Part shown: positions 1,660-43,322 of the stretch, in pieces
Numbering within the stretch: position 1 is the stretch's first letter
How the letters are laid out: every line of letters begins with the position of its first letter
IMG/VR virus record: IMGVR_UViG_3300045988_154248
From: a virus
Direction: 5' to 3' (one strand)
Length of the DNA stretch: 64,000 bases
The notes under the pieces: generated by a model
Database searches by the model: none
What the model saw: only the letters and a program-made list of their open reading frames with translations
What the model was told of the DNA's origin: nothing
Program-made: the position numbers and the translations under genes

Positions 1660-2060
1660 ATATTAATACAAATATTATAGATTTTGTATGGAATTTTAAA
1701 AATTTTAAACTTAATGATTTTGGATTAGATCCTGAATATAACATGTTATGTGCGCCAGTTTGTGAATGCGGATGTGGTGAGAAGATGAATGTTTTACTTG
1801 AAAGTGATGATGACATCTATGATTTTTGTTATGAGCTTGTAGATACTCAAGATTGCAATTATTGTGTTGCTTTTGCAATCAATGAAAAGAATGAAATGCT
1901 TGGTGCAATTAAATATGATGGTGAAATTCATTGTATTAAATTGAAAAACATTTCTGAAGACTATCTTCAAGTTGGTGGCATGTTTAATGATTTAGAGCTA
2001 CATCAGTATGGAATTATTGTCTGTGTTGGCGATGGAGAATATAAGATTTTGGAGGAATAA
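1656..2060 (+). CDS. hypothetical protein
   Basis: ATG 1656 follows GGAGG (1643-1647) and overlaps the upstream stop. The track ORF's earlier start at 1632 is less likely. Confidence 0.4.
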   Translation: MNINTNIIDFVWNFKNFKLNDFGLDPEYNMLCAPVCECGCGEKMNVLLESDDDIYDFCYELVDTQDCNYCVAFAINEKNEMLGAIKYDGEIHCIKLKNISEDYLQVGGMFNDLELHQYGIIVCVGDGEYKILEE

Positions 2061-2067
2061 AAAATAT

Positions 2068-4581
2068 ATGGCAGGTATTAATGTACCTCAGTATGAGATT
2101 TTTAAAATTGGAACAGATAAATTAAAATATTCTAAATGGAATTTGAATATTGATAAAAAAGAAGCATTTAAATACCAAGAATCTGTTTCATTATTTGAAG
2201 GTCAGCAATTTCGAATTATGGCAAAGAAAATCATGAAGAAAGCAAAATGGAAATGTGATTTTTCGAAACTTTTTATGCAAGTCGTTATTGATCAGAAAAC
2301 AGATTTTGCAAGAGCGACAAACAGAAAAGGTGTTACTGTAAATGGTATAAATTATAGACGTTTTGTTGGAACAACAGGTGGTTTGAAGAATAATACTCTT
2401 CTATTTTGTAATTCGGAATACATAGATAAACTAAATGAATTATGTGAGTGTAGGCGAAACAAAGAAGTGCCATTAGTTCCAGCAAAATATGAAGCATATA
2501 AAGCGTTAACTTGCTCTGCATCGCAGCCAATTTGCGAACCACATGGAATTTTAGTTGTAAAAGATTGCATTACTCAATACGAAGATGATGTAATTTCTCT
2601 CGATAGTGGAGTTGGAGACGGTGAGCCAATTCGTGAAAAAAAACATAAAGTAATGGAAAATACAGTGTCTGATGGGTTTAATTTATGTACTATTGGATAC
2701 ATGCAAAGAGTTGCTGAATCTCTTGGATTAGATTATACTCCTGCAGGTGTATGTTTGCGAAATGCCTGGTTAAAAGGTATGCTCTATCCTTTCCCAATTA
2801 TAGAGTTTATTGAAAAATATAATGGTGGGAATTATTTTATCAAGGATATTTGGGGTAATGTGCAGGACATTCGAGAGTGTGAAATGATTCTCACGGAATC
2901 TTCATTGAAATTATGGTCGGCATATGAAAGTATTGACGAATATATTGCAGCATATAGAGAGTGTGGATATGAATTTGCAGTTACGAAAATTTCTCCTCAT
3001 ATCTTAGATGAAGAACGTGAATTAAATTATCAATATTTACAGTCTTATGAATTCACTGATGATGATATTAAAGAATTGTGTAATCCTACCATTCAGCATT
3101 TAAAAGATGCGATGTGTGGAAACTACGAATCCACTATTAAATTTCTTGGAATTAATGAAAATACAGACGTGAATTCATGGCAACGTGCATTATATACAAG
3201 CCAATATATGCTTGGCGATCCGTATATTATCGATTCAACTCATAGGTATATTAAGAAGAAAATAAATGATGCAAAAATTGGTAAATTAATTGTAAATGGT
3301 AATTATCAAATTGCTAGTGGTGATCCGTTTGCGTTAATGCAATCAATTTGTGGCCTAGAAATAACTGGCTTATTAAAAGCTGATCAATGCTACTCAAAAT
3401 TCTGGATTGACAAATCTGTAGATTCTGTAGTTATCTTTCGAAGTCCAATGACTTCTCACAATAATATTCGAAAATGCAATGTAATTTCAAATGAAGAGTG
3501 TTTGTATTGGTATCAGTATATGGATACTATTATGATTATCAATGCATGGGATTCTTTTTGTGTGGCGGAAAACGGTTGTGATTGGGATGGCGATCTTTTA
3601 TATTCAACCAATAATAAAGTCTTACTTCGTTGTTTTAGAAAACTATTAGCAATTGAATGTGTTCAAAGAAAAGCCAATAAGATTATTATTAATGAAAAAG
3701 AAGTCAAAAAAACAAATAAAAACGGCATGGGAAATCAGGTTGGACAGATTACAAACCGTGTTACTTCGATGATCGAAGTTTTGTCACGATTTGAAGAGGG
3801 GTCTAATGAATATAATGATTTATTATATCGTATTGAATGTGGACAGCTTCACCAACAGGATGAATTGGATAAAATCAAAGGAATTATTGCAAAGCCAATG
3901 GCAAAATATTGGTATAATCTTGGTGCTTGTAAAGATAATCATTATTTACAATCAATTTGTGCTTATCGAAAACCGTATTTTATGATCTATATTTATGATG
4001 AGATTAAACGTAAGTATAAGAACTATATCAAGGAAAGCGAGATAAAATGCGCTGCATTATATGATTGCAGTATTCAAGATTTATATAGTAAAAAGGATAA
4101 TTTAACTGACGAACAAAAAGATTTTTTATTTTGGTATGAGTATAAAATGCCGGTTGGCATTGGAGCTTGTGCAATGAATAAAATCTGCTGGTATGTTGAA
4201 AGTCAATTAGACGGATATAAATCACAATTACATCATGATTCTACTTTTGATTACAATCGTTTAAAAGTTAAACGTCGATGTACAGAAGAACATCGGAAAG
4301 CTTTACATGATCTTGAACAAGAGTATCGTGAATGTATTAAGGAGTATAAAGCAAACAGGTCTTCCGACAAAGAACAATCAAATAATAACAGAAAATATTT
4401 ATGCGAAAAATTTAGGCAAGCGGCTATTGAACTTTGCCCAAATGATGAAGAGCGCATGAATATTATCCTTGATATCACCTATGGTTATAAGGGAAATCGA
4501 CAGTTTTGTTGGGACTGTATTGGTGACTTGCTTATTAAACGTTTGGAAGAAATGGAGAATGAAAATGTATATACTGAATGA
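2068..4581 (+). CDS. YonO-like / RdRP-like single-subunit two-barrel RNA polymerase (putative)
   Basis: 837 aa from ATG 2068 (GGAGG at 2051-2055). Contains FRSPMTSHNNIRK followed by ENGCDWDGDLLYS, i.e. the DxDGD metal loop of YonO/QDE-1-type polymerases. Size is similar to SPbeta YonO. Confidence 0.5.
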   Translation: MAGINVPQYEIFKIGTDKLKYSKWNLNIDKKEAFKYQESVSLFEGQQFRIMAKKIMKKAKWKCDFSKLFMQVVIDQKTDFARATNRKGVTVNGINYRRFVGTTGGLKNNTLLFCNSEYIDKLNELCECRRNKEVPLVPAKYEAYKALTCSASQPICEPHGILVVKDCITQYEDDVISLDSGVGDGEPIREKKHKVMENTVSDGFNLCTIGYMQRVAESLGLDYTPAGVCLRNAWLKGMLYPFPIIEFIEKYNGGNYFIKDIWGNVQDIRECEMILTESSLKLWSAYESIDEYIAAYRECGYEFAVTKISPHILDEERELNYQYLQSYEFTDDDIKELCNPTIQHLKDAMCGNYESTIKFLGINENTDVNSWQRALYTSQYMLGDPYIIDSTHRYIKKKINDAKIGKLIVNGNYQIASGDPFALMQSICGLEITGLLKADQCYSKFWIDKSVDSVVIFRSPMTSHNNIRKCNVISNEECLYWYQYMDTIMIINAWDSFCVAENGCDWDGDLLYSTNNKVLLRCFRKLLAIECVQRKANKIIINEKEVKKTNKNGMGNQVGQITNRVTSMIEVLSRFEEGSNEYNDLLYRIECGQLHQQDELDKIKGIIAKPMAKYWYNLGACKDNHYLQSICAYRKPYFMIYIYDEIKRKYKNYIKESEIKCAALYDCSIQDLYSKKDNLTDEQKDFLFWYEYKMPVGIGACAMNKICWYVESQLDGYKSQLHHDSTFDYNRLKVKRRCTEEHRKALHDLEQEYRECIKEYKANRSSDKEQSNNNRKYLCEKFRQAAIELCPNDEERMNIILDITYGYKGNRQFCWDCIGDLLIKRLEEMENENVYTE

Positions 4582-5599: not shown

Positions 5600-6590
5600 T
5601 TATGTTTTATTTTTTACTGGCAGATATAATAGTTTGCCAGTATTATCGCGGGATATGCTGGATCGGTTCCACGAGAGATTCATGTTCTCTAAAGCTACGT
5701 TCGACTCGTAGTCCCGCAACTCGTGGCATAGCACAGATAGATGCGTGTGAGCGTATTAAAGGCGAATTTACAACTCGTCGCCATGAAAATTGGTCAATCT
5801 ATGCAAAACTAACATCCCAGGCACTCAAAAAGTGCTGTTTCATACCGGTAAAACGAGTAAGTCCTGTGTGGAAATAGTGTCAGGAAATAGGGAGTAACAA
5901 GGTGATTCAGGGGCAACCGCTGAGAATCATTTTTCTGCGCAACAGAATAGCTCACGCGAACCTATGAAGATATGATGGGGAATTAGGAGGATATATAGTG
6001 CGAGTCCTTATTAGACAAGTGCGATGTCCATTTGGGTAAGTGAATTGGTAGAGATGCCAAATTAGCTTATGCAGGATGCGAGTAGGGATTATAACCGAAA
6101 GCTACGAAGGCGTGATGGATTTTGTTATCCAAAAGATAACGAAACATCTGGTGCAGCGCGTCTTCTGTATTCAATTTCGTTTCTATTAATTAGTATATTC
6201 AGGAAGAATGTAAAAATTGGTTTGATGCAAAAGGTAAACAAATTATAAAGCGAAAGTCTGTACCTCTGTATGGTGTAAGCAGCCAAAATGTGTAATCTCT
6301 TTTGAGGTAATACACACACTGAAAGATACGCAATATCTGGATGTGTTAAGCGGATTCTGCACAGTTCTCTTAGCGGAGATTTATAGCACGGCAGTGTTAA
6401 TGGAACGATGAAACTTGAGTAGTCATACAGCAAAGAAGATAAGCCTCTTCTCAAAAGGCGGTTGTGGAAGATACTATATGTGTGCGCAAGCAACATATAG
6501 TGGATAACCGAAGAAAAAATAATGTCGGTAAAGGTTTCTGAAAATACGTATAATCTCAGCGTATTTATTTTGCTACTTCTGTAGCATTAT
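5600..6590 (+). ncRNA. large structured non-coding region (candidate ROOL/GOLLD-class RNA; strand uncertain)
   Basis: About 1 kb with no credible ORF and visibly more G+C than its flanks. Many local hairpins and GNRA-like loops (e.g. TACTGGCA..TGCCAGTA at 5617-5645, ccGAAAgc). Immediately 5' of a tRNA. Confidence 0.35.
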
Positions 6591-6664
6591 TGCGGTGTAG
6601 CTCAGTTGGTGAGAGCATTCGGCTTATATCCGAACGGTCGTGGGTTCGAGTCCTACCACCCCAA
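6591..6664 (+). tRNA. tRNA-Ile (anticodon TAT)
   Basis: Manual cloverleaf: D arm GCTC/GAGC, anticodon stem TTCGG/CCGAA with loop CTTATAT, T arm GTGGG-TTCGAGT-CCTAC. One C:C mismatch in the acceptor stem. Confidence 0.8.
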
Positions 6665-6705
6665 CTATTTATCTTTGTTGTATACAAAGAAATTTAAAAC
6701 GAAAG

Positions 6706-8373: not shown

Positions 8374-9360
8374 AGCCAAAAAAGAATTTATTCAAAAGAT
8401 GAAACTGAATTAATGCTTGAAATGTACAAAGATGGAGAAACATATTCGGACATAGGGAAAGCTTTACATACTAAAGCACAAAAAGTTTCAAAATATTTAA
8501 AAGAACTGGGGTATGGCGTCAGGCCACATAACCAATTAAAAAATCATGAATATTTATCTGCATCACGAAAAAACTCTTTAAATGAAAATTTCTTTAAAAC
8601 TATTGATACAGAATCAAAGGCCTATTGGCTTGGATTTTTATATGCAGATGGATATATATGTAAAAAGTATGATAAATCGGGGCATGAAAAAGGTGGATCA
8701 GTAGAGTTAACTTTAAAATCAGATGATAAATATCATATTCAAAATTTTTTAAGTGATATACAATCTACTGCGCCGATTGCAGATAGGAAAATAAAATTAA
8801 ATGGTAAAGAATATTTTGCAAACAGAGCTTGTATAACGTCTATTAAAATGGTGAATGATTTAATTAGTCATGGATGCGTAGAAAATAAATCTTTGATTTT
8901 AGAACCACCTACCTCTGTTCCTGATGGTTTAATTTCGCACTTTATACGCGGATACTTTGATGGCGATGGATGTGTATGTTTTTATCCTGAAAACTATTCA
9001 TATACGTATAGTATATTGGGTACTAAAGCATTTCTTGAGTTTGTTGCAACCAAAGCACAATTACCGTCTTTTAATATTATCTCTTTTGAACACAAAAAAT
9101 GTTATGAATTAAGAACTCATTCCAAAAAATCAGCAGAATTATTTCATAATTACATTTATAAAGACAAAACAATTTATCTCGAAAGAAAATATCAAAAATC
9201 TCTTGCGATGATGAAGTGGTGTTTTATGGAAGATAATAGAACTGAAACACAGAAAATAGCAGATTTATTAGACGATATGTTATTTTTTGATGATAGTAAT
9301 ATAGAAAATTTTATAAAGTATGTCAAGAACACCCGTGACTTTAGTCATGGGATGAATTGA
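8371..9360 (+). CDS. LAGLIDADG homing endonuclease with N-terminal HTH
   Basis: Two LAGLIDADG motifs: WLGFLYADGY and IRGYFDGDGC. The last ~15 codons run into the IS left end. Confidence 0.85.
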   Translation: MSQKRIYSKDETELMLEMYKDGETYSDIGKALHTKAQKVSKYLKELGYGVRPHNQLKNHEYLSASRKNSLNENFFKTIDTESKAYWLGFLYADGYICKKYDKSGHEKGGSVELTLKSDDKYHIQNFLSDIQSTAPIADRKIKLNGKEYFANRACITSIKMVNDLISHGCVENKSLILEPPTSVPDGLISHFIRGYFDGDGCVCFYPENYSYTYSILGTKAFLEFVATKAQLPSFNIISFEHKKCYELRTHSKKSAELFHNYIYKDKTIYLERKYQKSLAMMKWCFMEDNRTETQKIADLLDDMLFFDDSNIENFIKYVKNTRDFSHGMN

Positions 9361-9453
9361 CATACATATGTTAAACAGAAATACGCTGTAATATATTGAA
9401 AACACTAGATTTTGTAATATACATATGTTATCATAGTCATGAGGTGATAATAT

Positions 9454-9855
9454 ATGGAAGTGACTCATGGTCGTGGATATGTATATTCGATACAATATCA
9501 TATTGTTTGGTGTGTTAAATACAGACACAAAATAATTACAGAAAAAATAGAGAATAGATTAATAGAGATACTTAATAAAATAGCTGATGATAATGGATTT
9601 CAAATATTAGAATGTAATACAGATAAAGACCATATTCATCTTCTCGTTAATTGTTCTCCGCAACATTATATCCCAGACATGATAAAAGCATTAAAAGGCG
9701 TGTCAGCAAGGTTACTTATGAAAGAATTTGGAGAAGAATTAAAAAGAAAATTATGGGGTGGTCACTTGTGGAATCCATCATATTTCGTGGCAACCGTATC
9801 AGAAAATACAGAAGAACAAATTAGAAAATATATTCAAAATCAGAAAAGAAAGTGA
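9454..9855 (+). CDS. tnpA: IS200/IS605 Y1 (HUH) transposase TnpA
   Basis: HUH motif (DHIHLLV), catalytic Tyr region (PSYFVATV) and typical ~130-aa size. Confidence 0.9.
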
Positions 9856-9865
9856 GGTGAAGTCA

Positions 9866-10969
9866 GTGGAAAAAGCTTATAAGTACAGGATTTATCCAAA
9901 TAAAAAGCAGAAAGAAATAATTGCAAAGACTTTTGGGTGTTGCAGATTTATATATAATAAGTATCTTGCAAAGCGAATTGAAATGTATGAACAGAATAAA
10001 GAAACATTTTCATATGTTCAATGTGCAAATGATATGAAGAAACTAAAATCAGAGTTAGAATGGCTTAAAGAAGTCGATTCTACTGCTCTTCAATCTTCAC
10101 TTAAAGATTTAGATTCAGCTTATCAAAAATTCTTTAAAGAACACACAGGATATCCTAAGTTCAAATCAAAGAAAACACATAGATTTTCTTATAAATCAAA
10201 GTGTGTAAATGGCAATATTCAGTATTGTGATAAATATATTAAGTTACCTAAACTTGGAATGGTAAAAACGAAAAACAAGTTAGTACCAAAAGGAATGATT
10301 CTTAATGCTACTGTGTCACAAGAACCAAGTGGCAAATATTATGTGTCAATTTGTTGTACTGATATTGATATTCAACCACTAAATAAAACTGGTAATAACA
10401 TTGGTATTGATTTAGGCATTAAAGAATTTTGTATTACAAGTGATGGAGAATTAATTCCAAATCCACATTACTTAAAGAAGTCTTTAGATAAACTTGCTAA
10501 GTTACAAAGAGAATTATCTCGAAAATCAAAAGGTAGTTCTAATCGTAATAAAGCAAGAATAAAGGTTGCAAGACTTCAGGAACATATTGCAAATCAGAGA
10601 AAAGATTTCTTGCATAAGTTATCTACTGAAACAATCAGAAGTAATGATATTGTATGTATCGAAGACCTTCAAGTAAAGAATATGATTAAAAATCATAAAC
10701 TTGCACAGTCTATCGCAGATGTATCATGGTCTGAATTTGTAAGACAACTTGAATATAAAGCAAATTGGTATGGTAAACAAGTTGTGAAAGTAGATAAATT
10801 CTATGCAAGTTCTCAAACTTGTAATGTATGTGGGTATATAAATAAGGATACAAAAAATCTTTCAGTAAGAGAATGGGAATGTCCTTGTTGTCATACACAT
10901 CATGACAGAGATATGAACGCAGCCATCAATATTCTTAATGAAGGATTGAGAATATTAGAAGTGGCATAG
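9866..10969 (+). CDS. tnpB: TnpB (OrfB) RNA-guided nuclease
   Basis: [10 protein letters not shown]-terminus; RuvC motifs [28 protein letters not shown]; zinc finger CNVCGY...[11 protein letters not shown] 9866 follows GAGGTGA. Confidence 0.9.
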
Positions 10970-14845: not shown

Positions 14846-14887
14846 TTTTGTTGAGTGTGTAAGACTGCAGCTTACGCACTCAACTAC

Positions 14888-14959
14888 AGGTCGTTAGTGT
14901 AATTGGCAACACGGCAGTCTCCAAAACTGTTAATCAGGGTTCGAATCCCTGGCTTCCTG
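14888..14959 (+). tRNA. tRNA-Trp-like (anticodon CCA) with degenerate acceptor stem
   Basis: Good D arm (GTGT/ACAC), anticodon arm (GCAGT-CTCCAAA-ACTGT) and T arm (CAGGG-TTCGAAT-CCCTG). The acceptor stem has two internal mismatches (T:T, C:T). Confidence 0.5.
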
Positions 14960-15222
14960 TTTGCAATTTTCTGCAAACGAGCGCAGAGAATAAATGATTA
15001 GAGACGGGTGGATAACCTGGTTTCTATCTTTCATACCAATATTTATGATTCGTTATTTTATGTGAGGTGATTACACCTCTCATTCATGAGATCTTTCTCG
15101 CTTTACGAGATGATTGTTGCCGCAGTCATCTCACATAAGATAACGACGGAAGTTATCGGCAAATAACTATAAATATTAAAAATGGCGAACGCTGCCATAG
15201 TGCGAGAAAGTGGAAAAAGTAT

Positions 15223-15939: not shown

Positions 15940-16013
15940 TAATGTGCTATTTGTAACGGAGAATAAAATATAGAGATCTCTCGATCTGTGTCATAGCTGG
16001 TCGAGAGAATTAA

Positions 16014-16074
16014 TGGAATGGGACTATTGGAAGTCATGAGCCAATAGAGTAGAGTCACCTACCTCTCTCCCATT
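16014..16074 (+). promoter_or_regulatory. two-hairpin motif with GAAGTCATGAGC loop, copy A (upstream of the integrase gene)
   Basis: P1 GAATGGGA/TCCCATTC. Hairpin 1 CTATTG-[GAAGTCATGAGC]-CAATAG. Hairpin 2 GTAG-agtcac-CTAC. Confidence 0.5.
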
Positions 16075-16106
16075 CTATTTTACGCAGACAAGAAAGGAGA
16101 GAAATA

Positions 16107-17159
16107 TTGTCAAAAGAAAAAATTACAAGAGTGAAATATTTCACTCCTGACAAAGAGAAATATATTTATGAAGAAAATTGGAAGAAATATAAAAAATATT
16201 TACAGTCCAATATTATTAAAAATAAAGATGTAAAAGATACGACATACAAGAGATATGAAGCCTTATTCCGACATTTTCTTATATGGCTTGGTGAAAGTTA
16301 TGGTGAACTTGATTTATATTCTGATGAATTTATGGAAAATGCCGTAGATATAATGGAAGGATACATGCTATTTTGTCAAGAAGTATTACAAAACCATAAA
16401 AAAATTATTAATATGAAAGTATCTGCAGTAAGTTCTTTTTATATTTGGTCAATGAAACGTGGTTTTGTTAAATATCACCCATTTGATGGAAAACTTGATC
16501 GCATGAAAAAGGCAAACGAGGAACAGATTTTAAATCATTATTTTCTTTCTGATGAGCAAATCAATCAGATCAGAAATGATTTATACCAAACGGAGAATAA
16601 TAAATGGAGCATACAAGATCAATTATTATTTGAAGTTTCTTTATTTTCCGCTAACCGGTTAGGAGCATTGGAGAGATTAACAATTTCTTCTCTTGATCTT
16701 GACAATATGGTATTTGAAGGAATTAGAGAAAAGGAAGGTTATAGAGTCGAAGTGTCATTTGATGATACATGTCGAGATATGATCGAAACATGGTTGTCTA
16801 TGCGAAAGGACGATTATGATCATCTTGAATGTGATGCCTTATTTATACATAAATATAAGGATGAATGGAAGCCATGGACAAGAAGTATGATTACTGATCG
16901 AATGCATAAATTCGGAGAAATTATTGGAATAGAAGATTTTCATCCTCACTGCATGAGAAAAACAGCGATTAATAAAATATATGAAGATACTGGCGATCTT
17001 AATCTTGCATCACAATGGGCTAATCACAAGTCAAGCGCAACCACTCAAGCTGCATATCTGAAACCAGTTTCTAAATCAGAACTTAGAGACAAACTAAAAT
17101 TATTAAAATTCAAGCAGCAGGAAATCGAAAAAGAAGTAAAAATGCAAGAAAATAATTAG
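16107..17159 (+). CDS. int: tyrosine recombinase / phage integrase
   Basis: SANRLGALERL (box I Arg), HPHCMRKTAI (HxxR) and HKSSATTQAAYL (His/Tyr). TTG start follows AAAGGAGAG. Confidence 0.85.
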   Translation: MSKEKITRVKYFTPDKEKYIYEENWKKYKKYLQSNIIKNKDVKDTTYKRYEALFRHFLIWLGESYGELDLYSDEFMENAVDIMEGYMLFCQEVLQNHKKIINMKVSAVSSFYIWSMKRGFVKYHPFDGKLDRMKKANEEQILNHYFLSDEQINQIRNDLYQTENNKWSIQDQLLFEVSLFSANRLGALERLTISSLDLDNMVFEGIREKEGYRVEVSFDDTCRDMIETWLSMRKDDYDHLECDALFIHKYKDEWKPWTRSMITDRMHKFGEIIGIEDFHPHCMRKTAINKIYEDTGDLNLASQWANHKSSATTQAAYLKPVSKSELRDKLKLLKFKQQEIEKEVKMQENN

Positions 17160-17207
17160 ATGTTGCTTGTATTAGCAACTGTGTTATTTTACTACAAATT
17201 TGTCATT

Positions 17208-17250
17208 TGTCAAGACTTAACTTGACATTCCTCAAAAATTAAGGTATATT
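17208..17250 (+). promoter_or_regulatory. sigma-A-type promoter with overlapping palindromic operator
   Basis: TTGACA (17222-17227), a 17-nt spacer, then TATATT (17245-17250). The palindrome TGTCAAG-acttaa-CTTGACA (17208-17227) overlaps the -35. Confidence 0.6.
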
Positions 17251-17260
17251 ACATTTGTAA

Positions 17261-17310
17261 GTAAGACAAAGTAGACCTGAGTAGAACGATGTAGAGTGAT
17301 ATAGTAGTCT
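17261..17310 (+). repeat. helically phased GTAGA repeats (iteron/arm-site-like)
   Basis: GTAAGAcaaa GTAGAcctga GTAGAacgat GTAGAgtgat ataGTAGTct. Exact 10-nt register, starting a few nt downstream of the promoter. Confidence 0.6.
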
Positions 17311-17445
17311 ATATAATTATTTAAATAAAATAACCACTTGCTAATCAAGTGGCTTTCAATAAATCGAATATATAGAATTGGGATATTCACCCAAGTGGAT
17401 TTCTCAGAGCCGAAGGGGTATCGGCTGATTTCAACTTACGAAAAG

Positions 17446-17470
17446 GATCGCTTATTTAGCGGTCTTTTTT
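17446..17470 (+). terminator. rho-independent terminator
   Basis: GATCGCT-tattt-AGCGGTC followed by TTTTTT. Confidence 0.7.
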
Positions 17471-17966
17471 CGTTGGGACAATATTCTGTAAAAACATTAG
17501 AATTGTCCCGGCAACAATAGTAGATAGTAAATTACTATCATTCACAATTGTGTATGTATCTTTAAAAAATCTTAGAAACGTATCTATGTCGCATCACCCT
17601 CCTTTCTTAGCAAGGGTATCTATATAACGAAGCATCGCTGCTTCGATGCGACTCTGAAAAATCCTTGACATTGCATCCAGCCGTAAATGAACGCCTGGGT
17701 GAATTCCTACATATAGATTATATGTCAACAGGAAAAATCTGTCAACCATAACATATGGACAATCTATAGATAGATCGTGTAGCAACACGTAAACTGCAAT
17801 CTCCGACCGACGTCTAGGAATCGGTATTGGCACAAACCTGAGAAAATGTGCGACGTCAAAAAATACAAAAAATCGCAAAAATATTTATAAAAAGGACGTG
17901 CTGTACCTTTACAAAATTTTCCTATTGTGATAATGTGAAATTATCAAATACAGGAGGTAATTTTGT

Positions 17967-18944
17967 ATGGACTATGTAGTAAAAAGCCAGAGTGCAAAGA
18001 ACTTTACTAAAGATATCGTAAAAGGAAAATACAGTATGAAACACAAGTTTCAACGCCAGGAAAATCAGTGGGGCAATCGTCAGAAAAGTTTACTGATTGA
18101 CTCTATGCTTCGTCCGTATCCAATCGATCCAATTAGATGCGAAGTCGGATCTGACGATGTAAGAAGAATTTTTGATGGCGTTCAGCGCGCTACCACAGTA
18201 AGAGACTTTTTTAAGAAAGATGGTTTTAGATTGGCTAAAAATTTAAAACCAGTTACAGTTGATGGCGAGGTATATGAAATTGCTGGTAAAAAATATGCAC
18301 AGCTCGATGAAGCCGTACAAGATAAGCTGAATGATTATGAGATGACAATCTATGTGTTTACTGATTGTACTGGAGAAGATATTCGAGAAATGTTTACTCG
18401 TCAGAACAATGGTAAACCATTGAACAATACTCAAAAACGTACAGCAATCGAGAGTGAAAAAGTAAGTGATGTTATCTTTAATTTTGCAGATCATGAGTTC
18501 TTTGAGAAAGTCCTTACTGATGCACAATATAAGAAAGATGTTCAGCGTGATCTGATCCGCGAAACCCTTATGCTGATTAATACAAATGAAGAAAATGATT
18601 TTACATCATTTAGAGCGAAAGATATCGACAGTTTTGTTGTTTGGTATGATGAAAATATCAATGCTACTGATATCAGTATATTAACAGATGTATTAGATAC
18701 TTTCAATACAGGAGATGAAGTAATCAAGGTAAAATCTACTTCTATTCCAATGATCCTGTATGGCGGTTATAAATGTATTAAAGACGGAAAAGATTTTAGA
18801 AAATTCGAAGCTGCAGTAAATGAGTTTGTTGAGAATTATGATTCTAACGAAGCATATAAACAACTTGTACAATCTGGTACTACTGCTTCTGCTGGTGTTA
18901 AAGCTCGTCTACAGTATTGGAATAACGTCGTAGATAATTTATAA
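17967..18944 (+). CDS. DUF262 (ParB/Srx-like nuclease-fold) protein
   Basis: KFQRQENQWGNRQKSLLIDSML..PIDPI....FDGVQRATTV matches the DUF262 FQR..W / DGQQR signature. No DUF1524/HNH half is present. Confidence 0.65.
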   Translation: MDYVVKSQSAKNFTKDIVKGKYSMKHKFQRQENQWGNRQKSLLIDSMLRPYPIDPIRCEVGSDDVRRIFDGVQRATTVRDFFKKDGFRLAKNLKPVTVDGEVYEIAGKKYAQLDEAVQDKLNDYEMTIYVFTDCTGEDIREMFTRQNNGKPLNNTQKRTAIESEKVSDVIFNFADHEFFEKVLTDAQYKKDVQRDLIRETLMLINTNEENDFTSFRAKDIDSFVVWYDENINATDISILTDVLDTFNTGDEVIKVKSTSIPMILYGGYKCIKDGKDFRKFEAAVNEFVENYDSNEAYKQLVQSGTTASAGVKARLQYWNNVVDNL

Positions 18945-18980
18945 TTTTTTGTGAAATAATTTGATATGATTTTTATTATG

Positions 18981-19010
18981 GAGAGTGGAGCAATCTACTC
19001 TCCATTTTTG
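18981..19010 (+). terminator. rho-independent terminator
   Basis: GGAGAGT-ggagcaatct-ACTCTCC followed by ATTTTTG. Confidence 0.65.
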
Positions 19011-19013
19011 TAT

Positions 19014-19097
19014 GGGCAGATGTGCTTAGTGGCGATAGCAGTGGGCCGTAACCCCACCACATTAGAAACACCGTAGGTTCGACTCCTACTCTGCTCA
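19014..19097 (+). tRNA. tRNA-Tyr (anticodon GTA), long variable arm
   Basis: Acceptor GGGCAGA/TCTGCTC, anticodon stem GTGGG/CCCAC with loop CCGTAAC, T arm GTAGG-TTCGACT-CCTAC. Confidence 0.85.
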
Positions 19098-19107
19098 TTT
19101 TTGTTTT

Positions 19108-19197
19108 GGAGCTTTACTCAAGTTGGATGAAGAGATCAGTCCTGAAAACTGACAGGCCGTTAACAACGGCGCGTGGGTTCGAATCCTACAGGCTCCG
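19108..19197 (+). tRNA. tRNA-Ser (anticodon TGA), long variable arm
   Basis: Acceptor GGAGCTT/AGGCTCC, anticodon stem TCAGT/ACTGA with loop CCTGAAA, variable stem GCCGTT/AACGGC, T arm GTGGG-TTCGAAT-CCTAC. Confidence 0.85.
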
Positions 19198-19232
19198 TAT
19201 ATAATTAGTGAATGGAGGCAGTGCCTCCGTAT

Positions 19233-19315
19233 GCCGGTATGGTGGAATTGGTAGACACATCTGGTTTAAGCCCAGATTGCTATGAGCAGTGCGAGTTCGA
19301 GTCTCGCTGCCGGTA
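19233..19315 (+). tRNA. tRNA-Leu (anticodon TAA), long variable arm
   Basis: GCCGGTATGGTGGAATTGGTAGACAC 5' half, anticodon stem TCTGG/CCAGA with loop TTTAAGC, T arm GCGAG-TTCGAGT-CTCGC. Confidence 0.8.
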
Positions 19316-19343
19316 TTATTTTTTGTAAAAAGGAGACATACAT

Positions 19344-19442
19344 ATGAAAGGTATGACCGGAATTTACAGGATCAATCCTGCATTGTTTGGTGGAATTCTT
19401 GGTGGATGCACTGGTATTCTACTTCGGATTCTATTGTTTTAA
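19344..19442 (+). CDS. 32-aa hydrophobic peptide (putative)
   Basis: AAAGGAG RBS then ATG: MKGMTGIYRINPALFGGILGGCTGILLRILLF. Not in the track (under 60 aa). Its 3' end overlaps the convergent - strand gene by 4 nt. Confidence 0.3.
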   Translation: MKGMTGIYRINPALFGGILGGCTGILLRILLF

Positions 19443-19921
19443 GGCGTTATGAATCCTAATAAATAAAATATTAAAGCAACTACAAATGAAACAATTGCGG
19501 TATTTCTCCAATAGTGTCTATTACTATTTTCAAGGTTTTTATTCACCGCTTTTAATTCTGCATTTACATTTCTTAAAGTATTCAATTCTTCTAAATTTGA
19601 ATCAATCGTTTTGTTTTGTATTTCAATTTGTGCATTCAATTTCATGTTTTCGTACTGAATTTTTCTCATAGCTTCTGTCTGACTTTCAAGCTCAGATTGC
19701 ATAGAATCCATTTTGTCAGTAAGGAATTTTAAACGTTCTTCTGGAGATTGGAATTTTGGCATGTAATCAAATATATTCATGCTGGCATTATTGTTCAGCA
19801 TTTGCTGATAGCTTGCATCTGATATTAGTTTTTCAGAAAATTCCTGTAGTTTTTGGAGATTTTTAGATAGAGCTACTGGTTCCAATATTTTTCCATCTGG
19901 TGTGGTTATAGTTTTACACAT
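19439..19921 (-). CDS. coiled-coil protein with C-terminal transmembrane anchor
   Basis: 160-aa - strand ORF. Long heptad-like region, then IVSFVVALIFYLLGFI. RBS AAAGAAAGGTG lies upstream on the - strand. Confidence 0.5.
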   Translation of the reverse strand: MCKTITTPDGKILEPVALSKNLQKLQEFSEKLISDASYQQMLNNNASMNIFDYMPKFQSPEERLKFLTDKMDSMQSELESQTEAMRKIQYENMKLNAQIEIQNKTIDSNLEELNTLRNVNAELKAVNKNLENSNRHYWRNTAIVSFVVALIFYLLGFITP

Positions 19922-20047
19922 TTAAATCACCTTTCTTTATTTTGTTTCATGTTTTATATTTTTATTCTCTTTAAATTCATTGGAGAATAAGTAATCATAA
20001 GCAGTTTGGTGCTTATTGCTCTGTCAGTGGAGCGTGATTAATTTTTT

Positions 20048-20111
20048 GGAGTAGGAAACCAGAGAAGTCATGAGCTTTGGCATAGTAGACACTCGCACTA
20101 CTCTCCTACTC
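20048..20111 (+). promoter_or_regulatory. two-hairpin motif with GAAGTCATGAGC loop, copy B (upstream of the HNH gene)
   Basis: P1 GAGTAGGA/TCCTACTC. Hairpin 1 CCAGA-[GAAGTCATGAGC]-TTTGG. Hairpin 2 AGTAG-acactcgca-CTACT. Stems covary with copy A and the loop is identical. Confidence 0.5.
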
Positions 20112-20150
20112 TTTTTTAATTGTTATGCGAGTGGAAAGCGAGAAATAAAA

Positions 20151-21407
20151 ATGGGATATACTCATGGAACAAGTATTGAATCAAAAACAAGAATTTGTAC
20201 AAAATGTGGAAAAGAATTCCCGAATACAAATAAATTCTTTTCTTATGCAAATAAAAAACTTGGACGATTAAATGCTTTATGTAAAGAATGTCAAAAAATA
20301 ATTAGTAAAGAAAAGCGCCTGAAGATTATTGAGAAAAATAAAAATAAAGATTTATTTTATTCAGGGACACGACATTGTAAAAAATGCAATAGAGATTTAC
20401 CAAATAATAAATTATATTTTCCTATCGATCTATCTTGTATTGATGGTTTAAGAAATGTATGTAGAGAATGCAGCAAAAAGGAATCTGGTTTTCTTGATCC
20501 CAATTATACAGTTTCCGAAAAATGGACGGATGAAGAAAATAATGTATTGTTAGAAAAATATAAAGATTTTACTGGCGAAGAATTGCATAATTTATTTTTG
20601 CCAAATAGAACCGTTAGATCTATAGAATGTCATGCAGCGCTTCTTGGTCTGCAAGGCAAGAATTACGATGCACAAGTTAGAGCTAATTTGTCTAGAAGTA
20701 TAAAAAATAGTGAAAAGTTGAAAGGGCGAGCATTATCTGAAGAATCCAGAAAGAAAATTTCTGAAACAAAAAGAGAATATTTTAAGACTCATAATGGATG
20801 GTGGAAAGGTAAAAGACGTAGCCCAGAACAATGCAAAATGATAAGCGAAAGGCAAAAGGGAAAATGGGCTGGAGATAAAAATCCAAGACATTTAAATCCA
20901 TTAGTTGGCGAAGAAAATGGTCGTTGGAAAGGTGGAATTAATTCTACTTATGTCGAGTTAAGATCTGATACAAAAAGTTGGTTCAATGATTCAATGGGAT
21001 TTTGTAATTATAAATGTGTTATAACTGGCGGTGAATTTGATAATGTACATCATACAACAGCATTTAGAGATATCGTTGATGAAGTTTTTAAAATAACAGG
21101 AATAGAAGTAAAACAGCAAGTATGTGATTATAACAAAGAAGATTTCGATGAATTAAGATTAACATTAAAAGATTTGCATATGTTATATGGGTATGGAGCA
21201 TGTATAAACAAAGAGGTACATAAATTATTCCATGACAATTATGGATATACAAAATTCTCTCCATTTGACTTTTTGGATTTTTTATACAGAATCGATACTG
21301 GAGAATTTGATACTTGGTTCACGGAAAATAATTTGAAAATAAATATAAATTATGAATATGTAGAATATTTAGAAAGCACTTTGTCAGTTCTTGCGGAAAG
21401 TGCTTAA
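20151..21407 (+). CDS. HNH homing endonuclease with NUMOD3-like repeats and N-terminal zinc ribbons
   Basis: Two CxxC...CxxC modules (CTKCGKEF..CKECQK; CKKCNRDL..CRECSK). Repeated S.E.R.KIS/GK..G NUMOD-like motifs. HNH core NVHHTTAF...NKEVHKLFH. The ATG 20070 extension lies inside the structured motif. Confidence 0.8.
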   Translation: MGYTHGTSIESKTRICTKCGKEFPNTNKFFSYANKKLGRLNALCKECQKIISKEKRLKIIEKNKNKDLFYSGTRHCKKCNRDLPNNKLYFPIDLSCIDGLRNVCRECSKKESGFLDPNYTVSEKWTDEENNVLLEKYKDFTGEELHNLFLPNRTVRSIECHAALLGLQGKNYDAQVRANLSRSIKNSEKLKGRALSEESRKKISETKREYFKTHNGWWKGKRRSPEQCKMISERQKGKWAGDKNPRHLNPLVGEENGRWKGGINSTYVELRSDTKSWFNDSMGFCNYKCVITGGEFDNVHHTTAFRDIVDEVFKITGIEVKQQVCDYNKEDFDELRLTLKDLHMLYGYGACINKEVHKLFHDNYGYTKFSPFDFLDFLYRIDTGEFDTWFTENNLKININYEYVEYLESTLSVLAESA

Positions 21408-43109: not shown

Positions 43110-43286
43110 ATGAAAAAATTTGATAAAGAATACAGTACTCAATACGTACCTGAGATGAAATATCTTCAATCAAAAGGTATTGAATATTCTTTTGTAAAAG
43201 ATATTCAAGGAGTGACGACATATAAATATACGAAGACACCAGAGTTATTTTTGGCTTTGGTGTCTTTTTATATGGAGAATAAATAA
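43110..43286 (+). CDS. small protein (58 aa), near-identical paralog of 8158-8337
   Basis: MKKFDKEYSTQYVPEMKYLQSKGIEYSFVKDIQGVTTYKYTKTPELFLALVSFYMENK. Part of the 210-bp repeat. Confidence 0.5.
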   Translation: MKKFDKEYSTQYVPEMKYLQSKGIEYSFVKDIQGVTTYKYTKTPELFLALVSFYMENK

Positions 43287-43322
43287 AAATACGAAAGGAT
43301 AAATAATAGGTGATAAATAATG
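43113..43322 (+). repeat. 210-bp direct repeat, copy B (1 mismatch to 8164-8373)
   Basis: Read directly; the single difference is gagaat vs gaaaat near the small-ORF stop. Confidence 0.9.

What the first reader, a model, noticed from the sequence alone, without database searches (positions are those of the whole stretch)
16014..20111. Covarying two-hairpin motif with an invariant 12-nt loop (GAAGTCATGAGC) upstream of the integrase and HNH endonuclease genes; related hairpin before tnpA
Copy A (16014-16074) and copy B (20048-20111) share the same architecture. A closing 8-bp stem encloses hairpin 1 with the identical loop GAAGTCATGAGC, followed by hairpin 2.

| Element | Copy A | Copy B |
|---|---|---|
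| Closing stem | GAATGGGA/TCCCATTC | GAGTAGGA/TCCTACTC |
| Hairpin 1 stem | CTATTG/CAATAG | CCAGA/TTTGG |
| Hairpin 2 stem | GTAG/CTAC | AGTAG/CTACT |

The stems differ by compensatory changes and the loop is invariant. This is the signature of a selected structure (RNA, or ssDNA/cruciform).

Both copies lie 30-40 nt upstream of the start codon of a DNA-mobilising enzyme. A third hairpin, TTATCA-[TAGTCATGAGG]-TGATAA (9428-9450), with a 9-nt loop match, sits on the RBS of tnpA.

The motif could be a translational or riboregulatory element, a protein-binding site, or a hairpin promoter for the phage's non-canonical RNA polymerase (a speculative analogy with N4 vRNAP hairpin promoters).
Basis: seen in the sequence. 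Interest (0 to 1): 0.65.

Follow-up and report, generated by a model that had tools for sequence, protein, structure and literature searches.

The report
Structured leader RNA of phage homing endonucleases
The two hairpin motifs are copies of a previously undescribed, widespread RNA leader that sits in front of selfish nuclease (homing endonuclease) genes in large gut-bacterial phages; it probably controls their translation and appears built to pair with a second copy of itself.

Summary
Both copies are real: three-way junctions (P1 closing stem, P2, P3) at 16015-16076 and 20048-20112. They belong to a family of about 100 copies in large IMG/VR phage contigs and one Coprococcus prophage. No Rfam family or paper matches.

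Covariation is strong: 94.6% of cells pair against 78.7% in shuffles, and 14 of 20 pairs show double changes.

The motif is tied to free-standing homing-endonuclease genes of more than 10 unrelated families (GIY-YIG, HNH, HNH_repeat and others), not to integrases. Window copy A is a recombinant whose nuclease module was replaced by an integrase.

- **P2 loop.** It is not invariant. It comes in four versions, UCAUGA, UAGCUA, UUGCAA and UGAUCA. All are 6-nt palindromes that covary at mirror positions, as in the HIV-1 DIS kissing loop.
- **P3 loop.** It resembles an anti-Shine-Dalgarno sequence and is complementary to two tandem downstream sites. The second site is the ribosome-binding site. More than 10 covarying versions exist.

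Best reading: a cis-acting leader that gates nuclease translation, probably modulated by RNA-RNA dimerisation.

The tnpA hairpin is unrelated, and the hairpin-promoter idea is unsupported.

The parts
15958..15973 (+). Copy A: conserved box GGAGAATAAAATATAG. It marks the 5' edge of sequence shared between leaders. Its role is unknown.
   Evidence: Leaders in unrelated genomic contexts become alike from this box onward. GGAGAATAW occurs 8 times on the + strand against 2.1 expected, but some occurrences are ordinary ribosome-binding sites.
15977..16008 (+). Copy A: upstream hairpin P0 (TCTCTCGATC / GGTCGAGAGA) with the conserved loop TGTGTCATAGCTG.
   Evidence: Predicted in the minimum-energy fold of 15955-16112. 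The stem differs in relatives and is G-U-rich in the type A leader class, while the loop is kept. It is absent from distant leaders.
16015..16076 (+). Copy A: three-way junction. P1 16015-16023/16068-16076; P2 16024-16029/16042-16047; P3 16049-16052/16059-16062.
   Evidence: Covariation.
16030..16041 (+). Copy A: P2 loop GAAGUCAUGAGC. G-C closes it, leaving AAG-UCAUGA-G with the 6-nt palindrome UCAUGA.
16077..16106 (+). Copy A: a U-run, then a foreign 3' leader part (CGCAGACAAGAAAGGAGAGAAATA) that lacks the two sites complementary to the P3 loop. The Shine-Dalgarno sequence GGAGAG is at 16096-16101.
   Evidence: L077 has the same upstream gene and the same junction, but an intact 3' leader and an HNH gene. 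No complement to the P3 loop was found downstream (L005/window class).
16107..17159 (+). Tyrosine integrase gene occupying a homing-endonuclease slot.
   Evidence: Pfam Phage_integrase, E = 1.5e-17.
19962..20033 (+). Copy B: upstream leader part. Hairpin TTATTCTC/GAGAATAA overlaps the box (19982-19996). It is followed by hairpins at 19997-20016 and 20018-20033.
20048..20112 (+). Copy B: three-way junction. P1 20048-20056/20104-20112; P2 20059-20063/20076-20080; P3 20084-20088/20098-20102. A U-run follows.
   Evidence: (94.6 bits).
20064..20075 (+). Copy B: P2 loop GAAGUCAUGAGC with the palindrome UCAUGA.
20089..20097 (+). Copy B: P3 loop ACACUCGCA, the arm that pairs with the Shine-Dalgarno region.
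   Evidence: It is complementary to 20126-20133 (8 nt) and to 20138-20142 (5 nt).
20126..20133 (+). Copy B: site 1 (UGCGAGUG), complementary to the P3 loop.
   Evidence: An 8-bp helix with 20090-20097 appears in the minimum-energy fold of the whole leader. It covaries across more than 10 leader classes.
20138..20145 (+). Copy B: site 2 (GCGAGAAA). It is a second copy of the P3-loop complement and lies in the ribosome-binding region, ending 6-9 nt before the AUG.
20151..21407 (+). Homing-endonuclease-like gene (418 aa) with N-terminal zinc ribbons and NUMOD3. The nuclease family is not established.
   Evidence: All 11 relatives sit behind this leader.

Best explanation
The motif is the core of a conserved, structured 5' leader RNA of free-standing homing-endonuclease gene cassettes. 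The cassettes occur in large SPbeta-like siphoviruses of gut Lachnospiraceae.

**Anatomy**
- The core is a three-way junction followed by an A/U-rich linker.
- After the linker come two tandem purine-rich sites. The second is the Shine-Dalgarno sequence of the nuclease gene.
- The P3 loop and its 3' flank are pyrimidine-rich and usually contain ACCU or CCUC, like the 3' end of 16S rRNA. This region base-pairs with site 1 or site 2.

**Mechanism**
- The leader competes with the ribosome for the ribosome-binding region and so gates translation of a potentially toxic nuclease. Repression is the more likely direction.
- The P2 loop carries a 6-nt self-complementary sequence flanked by purines. This lets two leaders, or a leader and a short leader transcript, form a loop-loop kissing dimer.
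- I infer that dimerisation modulates the switch. A dimer may supply two anti-Shine-Dalgarno loops for the two tandem sites, or it may create a long coaxial helix that RNase III can cut.

**Shown here**
- The structure, its covariation and its tie to nuclease genes.
- Complementarity of the P3 loop to both sites.
- Palindromy of the P2 loop.

**Inferred**
- That the RNA is the active form.
- The direction of control.
- Dimerisation.

**Window copy A**
- Copy A keeps the junction but lost sites 1 and 2 when an integrase module replaced the nuclease module.
For: **Family and structure**
- A pattern scan found 102 loci, about 80 of them true copies.
- A covariance-model alignment of 33 distinct sequences gave 94.6% paired cells against 78.7% in shuffles and 40-49% when the partners were slid. 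Fourteen of 20 pairs have double changes, in 117 cells.
- RNAalifold independently recovers P1 and P2, with 12 covarying pairs.
- G-U pairs occur at several positions on the + strand only.

**Gene association**
- An ORF starts typically 86-92 nt after the loop start.
- The ORFs fall into 19 protein clusters. These include GIY-YIG, HNH, HNH_repeat, DUF4379/treble-clef, I-HmuI-NUMOD and phrog_559/9084/314 'homing endonuclease'.
- Distant GIY-YIG genes from other metagenomes carry leaders in which all stems differ (L245, L249, L250, L254).

**Pairing of the P3 loop with the Shine-Dalgarno region**
- The P3 loop is complementary to two tandem sites in more than 10 sequence versions, for example CACCUAC/GUAGGUG, CCUCAUUC/GAAUGAGG, CCUACACA/UGUGUAGG, CCUAUGCC/GGCAUAGG, ACCUUACCC/GGGUAAGGU, ACCUGUAC/GUACAGGU and ACUCGCA/UGCGAGU.
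- For ten of eleven classes, only 0-46 of 1000 loop shuffles match as well (one, L030, gave 149).
- L076 shows a one-step compensatory change.
- Site 2 ends 6-10 nt before the start codon.
- The 8-bp helix appears in the minimum-energy fold of copy B.

**P2 palindrome**
- In 26 distinct P2 hairpins, hexamer positions 1/6 are U-A in all 26. Positions 2/5 are C-G in 13, A-U in 7, G-C in 4 and U-A in 2. Positions 3/4 are A-U in 17 and G-C in 9. All are complementary.
- Mirror positions only 0-4 nt apart cannot pair within one loop.
- The palindrome axis is offset from the stem axis (AG-N6-N). This fits an RNA loop and not a DNA palindrome.
- Background hairpins found by the same descriptor search carry a 6-nt palindrome in about 7-10% of cases, all made of A and T only.
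Against: - There are no expression, end-mapping or probing data. Dimerisation and the direction of control are inferences.
- Only four hexamers, all U....A, are seen over wide divergence. This suggests a constraint beyond self-complementarity, for example a common factor.
- Two exceptions keep only a 4-nt palindrome: L049 (AUUAGCUCU) and L235/L236 (CGAUCA).
- The sequences were gathered using the four palindromes as anchors. The unbiased searches are what found the classes.
- Junctions without the downstream sites persist before non-nuclease genes (window copy A; L025/L213 before phrog_3314; L108/L193). The junction may therefore have a function independent of Shine-Dalgarno pairing.
- A U-run after P1 in most copies also fits an intrinsic terminator.
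- In the type A leader class the site-1 pairing uses the 3' strand of P3, so P3 and the pseudoknot may be mutually exclusive there.
- The whole-leader fold of copy B is not more stable than shuffles (z -0.87).
Confidence: 0.6

Rival explanations
1. The junction plus U-run is an intrinsic terminator or insulator at the head of the cassette. It would produce a short RNA of about 70-150 nt. Nuclease expression would need read-through, and the short RNA could act in trans on sites 1 and 2. This overlaps partly with the best explanation.
For: - P1 is 9-12 bp and is followed within 0-3 nt by a run of 4-6 U in most classes.
- Junctions persist where the nuclease and the sites are gone (window copy A; L025/L213).
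- Module break points fall right after the U-run.
Against: - Divergent members lack a U-run directly after P1: L049 has CUAAAAAUAU, and L016 and L030 have mixed A/U.
- Branched terminators are unusual.
- The simple terminator scan does not call them, though it only models plain hairpins.
- A terminator does not explain the palindromic P2 loop or the conserved distance to the start codon.
Confidence: 0.2
2. The conserved P2 loop is the binding site of a trans-acting protein, such as a phage translational repressor or a host factor. The palindromy would then reflect a symmetric recognition mode rather than RNA-RNA pairing.
For: - The loop is by far the most conserved part.
- AAG-UCAUGA-R is kept where every stem has changed.
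- Only U....A hexamers are seen.
Against: - Four different hexamers with mirror-symmetric double changes are hard to fit to one sequence-specific protein.
- A single-stranded 9-10-nt loop offers no two-fold symmetry to a protein unless it first dimerises.
- One phage genome carries two loop classes (L038, L057, L017, L098).
Confidence: 0.1
3. The junction is a riboswitch: a ligand-binding aptamer whose pseudoknot hides the Shine-Dalgarno sequence.
For: The architecture resembles translational riboswitches: a three-way junction with a loop that pairs to the Shine-Dalgarno sequence.
Against: - The junction strands vary in length (0-5 nt) and in sequence between classes, so no conserved core is available for a pocket.
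- The only conserved loop varies in discrete palindromic classes.
- There is no Rfam match, even at E <= 10.
- The downstream genes have no metabolic theme.
Confidence: 0.04
4. The element works at the DNA level. It would be a single-stranded or cruciform hairpin acting as a promoter for the phage's YonO-like RNA polymerase. Alternatively it would be a folded recombination site, like integron attC, for the tyrosine recombinases found next to some copies.
For: - A YonO-like ORF with a CDWDGD motif is present.
- Integrase homologues lie next to truncated leaders, with three different break points.
- Nuclease ORFs are swapped behind identical junctions (L077 against the window, L081 against the window).
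Against: - The stems use G-U pairs that are valid on the gene strand only.
- The covarying complementarity runs to the ribosome-binding site at a fixed distance from the start codon. This points to mRNA.
- Most copies have no recombinase nearby.
- The palindrome axis is offset from the stem axis.
- N4 promoters are 5-7-bp hairpins with 3-nt loops (my own knowledge).
Confidence: 0.04
5. The element has no function of its own. The leader would be conserved only because nuclease cassettes spread recently and recombine with each other.
For: - Many copies are near-identical.
- There is clear modular recombination.
Against: - Compensatory changes in P1, P2, P3/site and the loop palindrome persist across classes that share almost no sequence.
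Confidence: 0.02

Closest known systems
RBS-sequestering hairpins upstream of T-even phage homing-endonuclease genes (I-TevI, I-TevII, I-TevIII, segB, Aeh1 mobE)
   Same: An RNA structure in the leader of a phage homing-endonuclease gene pairs with the Shine-Dalgarno sequence and limits translation (PMC2988022).
   Different: - The T4 structures are simple, gene-specific hairpins. They are bypassed by a late promoter inside the structure.
- Here one conserved RNA family, a three-way junction, serves many unrelated nuclease genes.
- It reaches the Shine-Dalgarno sequence through a loop, has two tandem target sites and carries a palindromic loop.
- The linker is 9-44 nt and variable. It leaves no room for a conserved internal promoter.
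HIV-1 dimerisation initiation site (DIS) kissing loop, and the AA-N6-A '180-degree' kissing loops used in RNA nanotechnology
   Same: - A hairpin loop of 9-10 nt with 5' purines, a 6-nt self-complementary core and one 3' nucleotide (AG-UAGCUA-C, AG-UUGCAA-A, AAG-UCAUGA-G).
- The core covaries so that it stays palindromic.
   Different: - Here the loop sits in a bacterial-phage mRNA leader and not in a retroviral genome.
- Dimerisation is not demonstrated.
- Only U....A cores are seen.
- The DIS features are recalled from my own knowledge. PMC7357161 reviews RNA dimerisation, but I did not read it in detail.
Pseudoknot expression platforms of translational riboswitches (for example SAM-II, preQ1-II) and autoregulatory mRNA pseudoknots (T4 gene 32, the S15 leader)
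   Same: A loop of a folded leader domain pairs with, or lies next to, the Shine-Dalgarno sequence.
   Different: - There is no conserved ligand-pocket core.
- No cognate protein is evident.
- The target sites are tandemly duplicated.
- This comparison rests on my own knowledge.
HEARO / IscB omega-RNA (HNH-endonuclease-associated RNA), and GOLLD/ROOL/OLE homo-oligomeric RNAs
   Same: - HEARO is an RNA genetically linked to a nuclease ORF.
- GOLLD, ROOL and OLE show that bacterial and phage RNAs can form homo-oligomers (PMC12286853, listed).
- A GOLLD RNA lies in this same window.
   Different: - The Rfam models for these families do not match the motif.
- HEARO is a guide-RNA scaffold of about 300 nt for one protein family.
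- The present motif is 65 nt and serves many protein families.

Membership tests
Any Rfam 15 family (including HEARO, pistol, hatchet, twister-sister, EAR and phage motifs) | The sequence scores at or above the family's covariance-model gathering threshold. | tested here: not met
   No match at the motif at gathering thresholds. At E <= 10 on 200-nt windows only noise appears, with best scores of 15.5 and 14.4 bits against thresholds of 35-111.
T4-type homing-endonuclease translational control hairpin | An RNA structure in the leader base-pairs with the Shine-Dalgarno sequence of the nuclease gene. | tested here: met
   The P3 loop is complementary to site 2, which ends 6-10 nt before the start codon. 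This holds in more than 10 covarying versions. It is not met for window copy A.
T4-type homing-endonuclease translational control hairpin | A late promoter inside or after the structure gives transcripts that lack the inhibitory arm. | tested here: inconclusive
   The linker between P1 and site 1 is 9-44 nt and not conserved, and no sigma-70-like site is called there. The phage's own promoters are unknown.
DIS-like kissing-loop dimerisation element | A hairpin loop holds a self-complementary 6-nt core flanked by unpaired purines. | tested here: met
   All 26 distinct P2 hairpins meet this. All four Watson-Crick combinations occur at mirror positions 2/5. The exceptions are L049 and L235/L236.
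DIS-like kissing-loop dimerisation element | The RNA forms dimers through the loop. | not testable with these tools
   This needs native gels, SEC-MALS or SAXS with loop mutants.
Riboswitch | The junction or core nucleotides that form a ligand pocket are highly conserved. | tested here: not met
   J1/2, J2/3 and J3/1 vary in length and sequence between classes.
Intrinsic (rho-independent) terminator | A stable G+C-containing stem is immediately followed by a U-tract. | tested here: inconclusive
   A U-run follows P1 in most classes but not in L049, L016 or L030. The stem closes a branched structure, and the simple scan does not call it.
N4 vRNAP-type hairpin promoter | A small DNA hairpin (5-7-bp stem, 3-nt loop) lies upstream of early genes and acts on single-stranded template DNA. 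| tested here: not met
   The motif is a 62-65-nt three-way junction with 9-12-nt loops. It has gene-strand-specific G-U pairs and pairs with the ribosome-binding site. The N4 features are from my own knowledge.
IS200/IS605 5'-UTR hairpin occluding the tnpA RBS (for the third hairpin, 9428-9450) | A stem-loop holds the tnpA Shine-Dalgarno sequence immediately before the tnpA start codon. | tested here: met
   The hairpin at 9422-9456 folds at -13 kcal/mol (z -4.1), with GAGGUGA in the loop and 3' arm and the AUG at 9454. An identical IS copy is in L215, and the Enterococcus relative has another loop. That IS200 uses such a hairpin is from my own knowledge.
Integron attC-like folded recombination site | The site is associated with a tyrosine recombinase, and single-strand folding has conserved structure without conserved sequence. 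| tested here: not met
   Most copies have no recombinase nearby. The loop sequence is conserved, and the complementarity runs to the ribosome-binding site.

The most novel reading that the evidence does not exclude
The leader is a self-dimerising mRNA element.
- Two P2 loops kiss, as in the HIV-1 DIS. This joins two junctions into a two-headed complex.
- The two anti-Shine-Dalgarno P3 loops of that complex clamp the two tandem sites on a nuclease mRNA. Alternatively, the coaxial P2-kiss-P2 helix of about 20 bp becomes an RNase III substrate.
- Translation of the selfish nuclease would then depend on the concentration of its own leader RNA. This would be an RNA-only dosage or timing sensor with no protein or ligand, a control principle not yet described for bacterial or phage mRNAs.
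- The discrete loop classes (UCAUGA, UAGCUA, UUGCAA, UGAUCA) would act as orthogonal 'addresses' within one phage genome.
Probability: 0.3. Interest if true: 0.9.

Novelty: new variant of a known kind. Interest (0 to 1): 0.74.

Why it matters
- Homing endonucleases are among the commonest selfish genes in phages, yet their control is known only from a few T-even cases with idiosyncratic hairpins.
- Here a single portable RNA module serves GIY-YIG, HNH and other nuclease families in abundant human-gut phages. This suggests that the regulatory leader is part of what makes these cassettes transferable and tolerable.
- The module shows mirror-symmetric covariation in a hairpin loop. That is the sequence signature of an intermolecular kissing helix, and natural RNA homodimers are rare outside retroviruses and the recently solved GOLLD, ROOL and OLE complexes.
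- The element is small (about 65 nt, or about 110 nt with its target sites) and has natural compensatory variants. The dimerisation and anti-Shine-Dalgarno hypotheses can therefore be tested directly in vitro.
- It could also yield orthogonal, compact translational control parts.

Tried and rejected
- **Rfam.** Searches at gathering thresholds and at E <= 10 found no family.
- **GenBank phages.** Megablast of 6.5 kb and blastn of the leader against GenBank phages found no true match. MT835469 shares only the site-region 22-mer.
- **Literature.** Searches on homing endonucleases with kissing loops or RNA motifs, on YonO promoters and on the literal loop sequences found nothing on this motif.
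- **Pairing of the P2 loop with an upstream GCUCAUGA.** This segment occurs in leaders of the type A class. The idea is rejected because leaders with UUGCAA or UAGCUA loops keep the same upstream segment.
- **Leader mini-ORF or use of the AUG in the loop.** Neither is conserved across classes.
- **The box GGAGAATAAATATAT as a general phage promoter.** This is inconclusive. The box is enriched on the + strand, but several hits are plain ribosome-binding sites.
- **Relatedness of the tnpA hairpin.** Rejected.
- **MAFFT alignment across leader classes.** The alignment was out of register. I used a covariance-model alignment and a Python descriptor search instead.
- **Column-wise pair counting for the pseudoknot.** I abandoned this because the geometry differs between classes. 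A shuffle test replaced it.
- **Nuclease family of the copy B protein.** PDB sequence search, Pfam and PHROGs did not resolve it.

Full report

| Part | Copy A | Copy B |
|---|---|---|
| P1 | 16015-16023 / 16068-16076 | 20048-20056 / 20104-20112 |
| P2 | 16024-16029 / 16042-16047 | 20059-20063 / 20076-20080 |
| P2 loop (GAAGTCATGAGC) | 16030-16041 | 20064-20075 |
| P3 | 16049-16052 / 16059-16062 | 20084-20088 / 20098-20102 |

RNAfold gives this three-way junction as the minimum-energy fold for both copies. Copy A folds at -23.6 kcal/mol (z = -3.4) and copy B at -19.5 kcal/mol (z = -2.1).

The exact 12-mer occurs only twice in the window. A repeated 12-mer in 64 kb is not remarkable by itself. 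The case rests on relatives found elsewhere.

**2. A large family with strong covariation**

A scan of IMG/VR for the loop plus AGTAG returned 102 loci. About 80 are true copies, in contigs of 80-200 kb.

I built a covariance model from one subclass. It recovered all subclasses plus variants that lack the loop sequence. The resulting alignment holds 33 distinct sequences, and its statistics are as follows:
- 94.6% of cells form standard pairs. The figure is 78.7% after shuffling and 40-49% when the partners are slid.
- 14 of 20 pairs have changes on both sides, in 117 cells.
- All six P2 pairs and six of nine P1 pairs covary.

RNAalifold, run without my structure, predicts P1 and P2 with 12 covarying pairs. 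It also closes the loop with a G-C pair, which leaves AAGUCAUGAG. G-U pairs at several positions are valid only on the gene strand.

No Rfam 15 family matches, even at E <= 10. GenBank phages hold no copy. Four literature searches found nothing.

**3. What the motif is attached to**

In almost every copy an ORF starts at a near-constant distance, typically 86-92 nt after the loop start, on the same strand. The ORFs fall into 19 protein clusters. Most are homing-endonuclease types:
- GIY-YIG with NUMOD1;
- HNH;
- HNH_repeat;
- DUF4379 treble-clef with I-HmuI-NUMOD;
- PHROGs 559, 9084 and 314, all annotated 'homing endonuclease'.

The exceptions are:
- tyrosine integrases (window copy A, L039);
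- an antirepressor (L030);
- phrog_3314 (L025/L213);
- phrog_9501 (L049);
- a few proteins of unknown family.

The window's copy B gene is a 418-aa protein with zinc ribbons and NUMOD3. It gave no HNH hit. All of its relatives sit behind this leader.

I also started from an alignment of the GIY-YIG proteins. Their distant homologues in other metagenomes carry leaders in which P1, P2 and P3 all differ in sequence (L245, L249, L250, L254).

The phage is a large siphovirus distantly related to SPbeta, Sundance and 949-type phages. The single hit among GTDB species genomes is a Coprococcus ammoniilyticus contig. The host is therefore probably a gut Lachnospiraceae.

**4. Window copy A is a recombinant**

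L077 has the same upstream antirepressor gene and the same junction as the window. There it is followed by the normal 3' leader and an HNH gene. In the window the sequence changes right after the U-run, and an integrase follows.

Integrase homologues lie next to truncated leaders at two other break points:
- inside the P1 3' strand in L039;
- right after the upstream hairpin in L134, L184 and L206.

In L025 and the Coprococcus prophage the copy-B-type junction directly precedes the phrog_3314 gene. In the window that gene follows the nuclease gene. These copies have no nuclease and no sites, and the P3 loop is mutated.

**5. The P3 loop pairs with the ribosome-binding region**

Downstream of P1 lies an A/U-rich linker of 9-44 nt. 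After it come two tandem copies of a purine-rich unit, each complementary to the P3 loop and, in some classes, to its 3' strand as well.

In copy B the loop CACUCGCA (20090-20097) matches UGCGAGUG (20126-20133). It also matches GCGAG (20138-20142), just before the AUG at 20151.

The pairing covaries between classes:

| P3 loop segment | Downstream site |
|---|---|
| CACCUAC | GUAGGUG |
| CCUCAUUC | GAAUGAGG |
| CCUACACA | UGUGUAGG |
| CCUAUGCC | GGCAUAGG |
| ACCUUACCC | GGGUAAGGU |
| ACCUGUAC | GUACAGGU |
| UCCUUUC | GAAAGGA |
| UUACUCUC | GAGAGUAA |
| CCCAC | GUGGG |
| UAACCUC | GAGGUUA |

Further points:
- For ten of eleven classes, only 0-46 of 1000 shuffles of the P3 region match the downstream sequence as well (L030: 149).
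- L076 differs from its nearest relatives by one compensatory step: UUCUCGCA/UGCGAGAA against UACUCGCA/UGCGAGUG.
- Site 2 ends 6-10 nt before the start codon, so it is the Shine-Dalgarno sequence.
- The P3 loops mostly contain ACCU or CCUC, like the 3' end of 16S rRNA (my own knowledge).
- The minimum-energy fold of the whole copy B leader contains the 8-bp helix between loop and site 1.

**6. The P2 loop is a covarying palindrome, not an invariant sequence**

Searches that did not use the loop sequence found junctions with other P2 loops. These searches were the covariance model, a scan for the upstream hairpin loop, a structural descriptor search and protein-anchored loci. The loops found were:
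- AG-UAGCUA-C;
- AAG-UAGCUA-G;
- AG-UUGCAA-A;
- C-UGAUCA-U.

All contain a 6-nt palindrome. Counts over 26 distinct P2 hairpins were as follows:

| Hexamer positions | Pairs observed |
|---|---|
| 1/6 | U-A 26 |
| 2/5 | C-G 13, A-U 7, G-C 4, U-A 2 |
| 3/4 | A-U 17, G-C 9 |

Complementarity is 100%. The same P2 stem (CAAAUCGG) occurs with UUGCAA and with UAGCUA. Those two hexamers differ exactly at mirror positions 2 and 5.

Three arguments point to pairing between two RNA molecules:
- Mirror positions 0-4 nt apart cannot pair within one loop. The covariation therefore points to pairing between two loops of the same sequence.
- The palindrome axis is shifted half a nucleotide from the stem axis, with two 5' purines and one 3' nucleotide. 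This is the layout of the HIV-1 DIS kissing loop and does not fit a DNA palindrome for a dimeric protein.
- One genome can carry two loop classes (L038, L057, L017, L098).

Background hairpins from the same descriptor search carry a 6-nt palindrome in about 7-10% of cases, and those are made of A and T only.

Caveats:
- The 26 sequences were collected using the four palindromes as anchors.
- Two exceptions keep only a 4-nt palindrome: L049 (AUUAGCUCU) and L235/L236 (CGAUCA).
- Only U....A cores occur, which hints at an additional constraint.

**7. Upstream parts**

Many leaders begin with a box GGAGAATAAATATAT. One or two hairpins with covarying, G-U-rich stems follow.

Distant leaders lack these parts. 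Some start about 10 nt after a tRNA gene. The junction plus the two sites is therefore the core. The role of the box is open.

**8. How it most likely works**

The best-supported model is a cis-acting translational control leader. The anti-Shine-Dalgarno-like P3 loop competes with the ribosome for the tandem sites. Known logic for T-even homing endonucleases makes repression the likelier direction (PMC2988022).

I infer that the palindromic P2 loop mediates kissing dimerisation that modulates this control. Two junctions would match the two tandem sites. Alternatively, the stacked P2-kiss-P2 helix could be an RNase III site.

The rivals are as follows:
- An intrinsic terminator or insulator that produces a short RNA. 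A U-run follows P1 in most copies, but not all.
- A protein-binding loop.
- A riboswitch. There is no conserved core.
- A DNA-level hairpin promoter or recombination site. Strand-specific G-U pairs and the pairing to the ribosome-binding site argue against it.
- Hitch-hiking without function. The covariation argues against it.

**9. The third hairpin**

The hairpin at 9428-9450 is real (z = -4.1) and encloses the tnpA Shine-Dalgarno sequence.

Its loop resemblance is at chance level, and part of it is the Shine-Dalgarno GAGG. An identical IS copy elsewhere adds no variation. An Enterococcus relative has a different loop.

The hairpin fits the known IS200-type hairpin that occludes the ribosome-binding site (my own knowledge). 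I treat it as unrelated.

**10. Verdict**

This is a genuine, undescribed structured RNA family linked to phage homing-endonuclease cassettes.

[quoted passage not shown] The kissing-loop signature and the tandem target sites would make it a new control principle if confirmed experimentally.

Noticed in passing
window 6105-6665: A full-length GOLLD RNA (Rfam RF02032, 193 bits) is followed directly by tRNA-Ile(UAU).
   Followed up: no
window 9340-10969; L215; L214: An IS200/IS605 element with tnpA (9454-9855) and tnpB (9758-10969). TAGTCATGG near the left end (9342) recurs as TAGTCATGAGG in the ribosome-binding-site hairpin loop (9433). An identical copy lies in another IMG/VR contig. Relatives at about 70% identity occur on Enterococcus plasmids, with a different loop.
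   Followed up: partly
window 2008-4581: An 857-aa ORF with no Pfam or PDB sequence match has a CDWDGD motif (aa 525-535) and hits PHROGs 8308 and 25339. It may be a YonO-like single-chain RNA polymerase. The portal protein is most similar to those of SPbeta-like, Sundance and 949-type large siphoviruses.
   Followed up: partly
window 43264-44687: A third homing-endonuclease-like gene (phrog_559, 455 aa) is preceded by the box TGGAGAATAAATA but has no three-way junction. The leader is therefore not obligatory for such genes in this phage.
   Followed up: partly
window 16077-17159; L039; L134, L184, L206: Homologous tyrosine-integrase genes lie behind leaders truncated at three different points: after the U-run, inside the P1 3' strand, and right after the upstream hairpin. 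This suggests repeated replacement of nuclease modules, or targeting of the leader by an integrase-bearing module.
   Followed up: partly
L225:400-600; L254:170-400: In more distant phages the junction starts about 10 nt after a tRNA gene, with no box or upstream hairpin. tRNA processing may define the 5' end of the leader there.
   Followed up: no
L049 (- strand, around 11589); L235/L236: These leaders have P2 loops that keep only a 4-nt palindrome (AUUAGCUCU, and CGAUCA as a one-base variant of UGAUCA). They are possible decaying copies or exceptions to the palindrome rule.
   Followed up: partly
L008, L035, L167, L206 and other relatives: Other conserved intergenic blocks that start with a similar box (GAGAATATATAAGTATCACATCTTGGCATTTGCTATTCATGTAGCATTGTAAG...) recur in related contigs. 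Their nature is unknown and they may be further structured RNAs.
   Followed up: no
window 17967-19316: An ORF with a GmrSD_N (DUF262) domain lies at 17967-18944. A tRNA-Tyr, tRNA-Ser and tRNA-Leu cluster lies at 19013-19316, between the two leader copies. tRNA-Trp is at 14887-14960.
   Followed up: no
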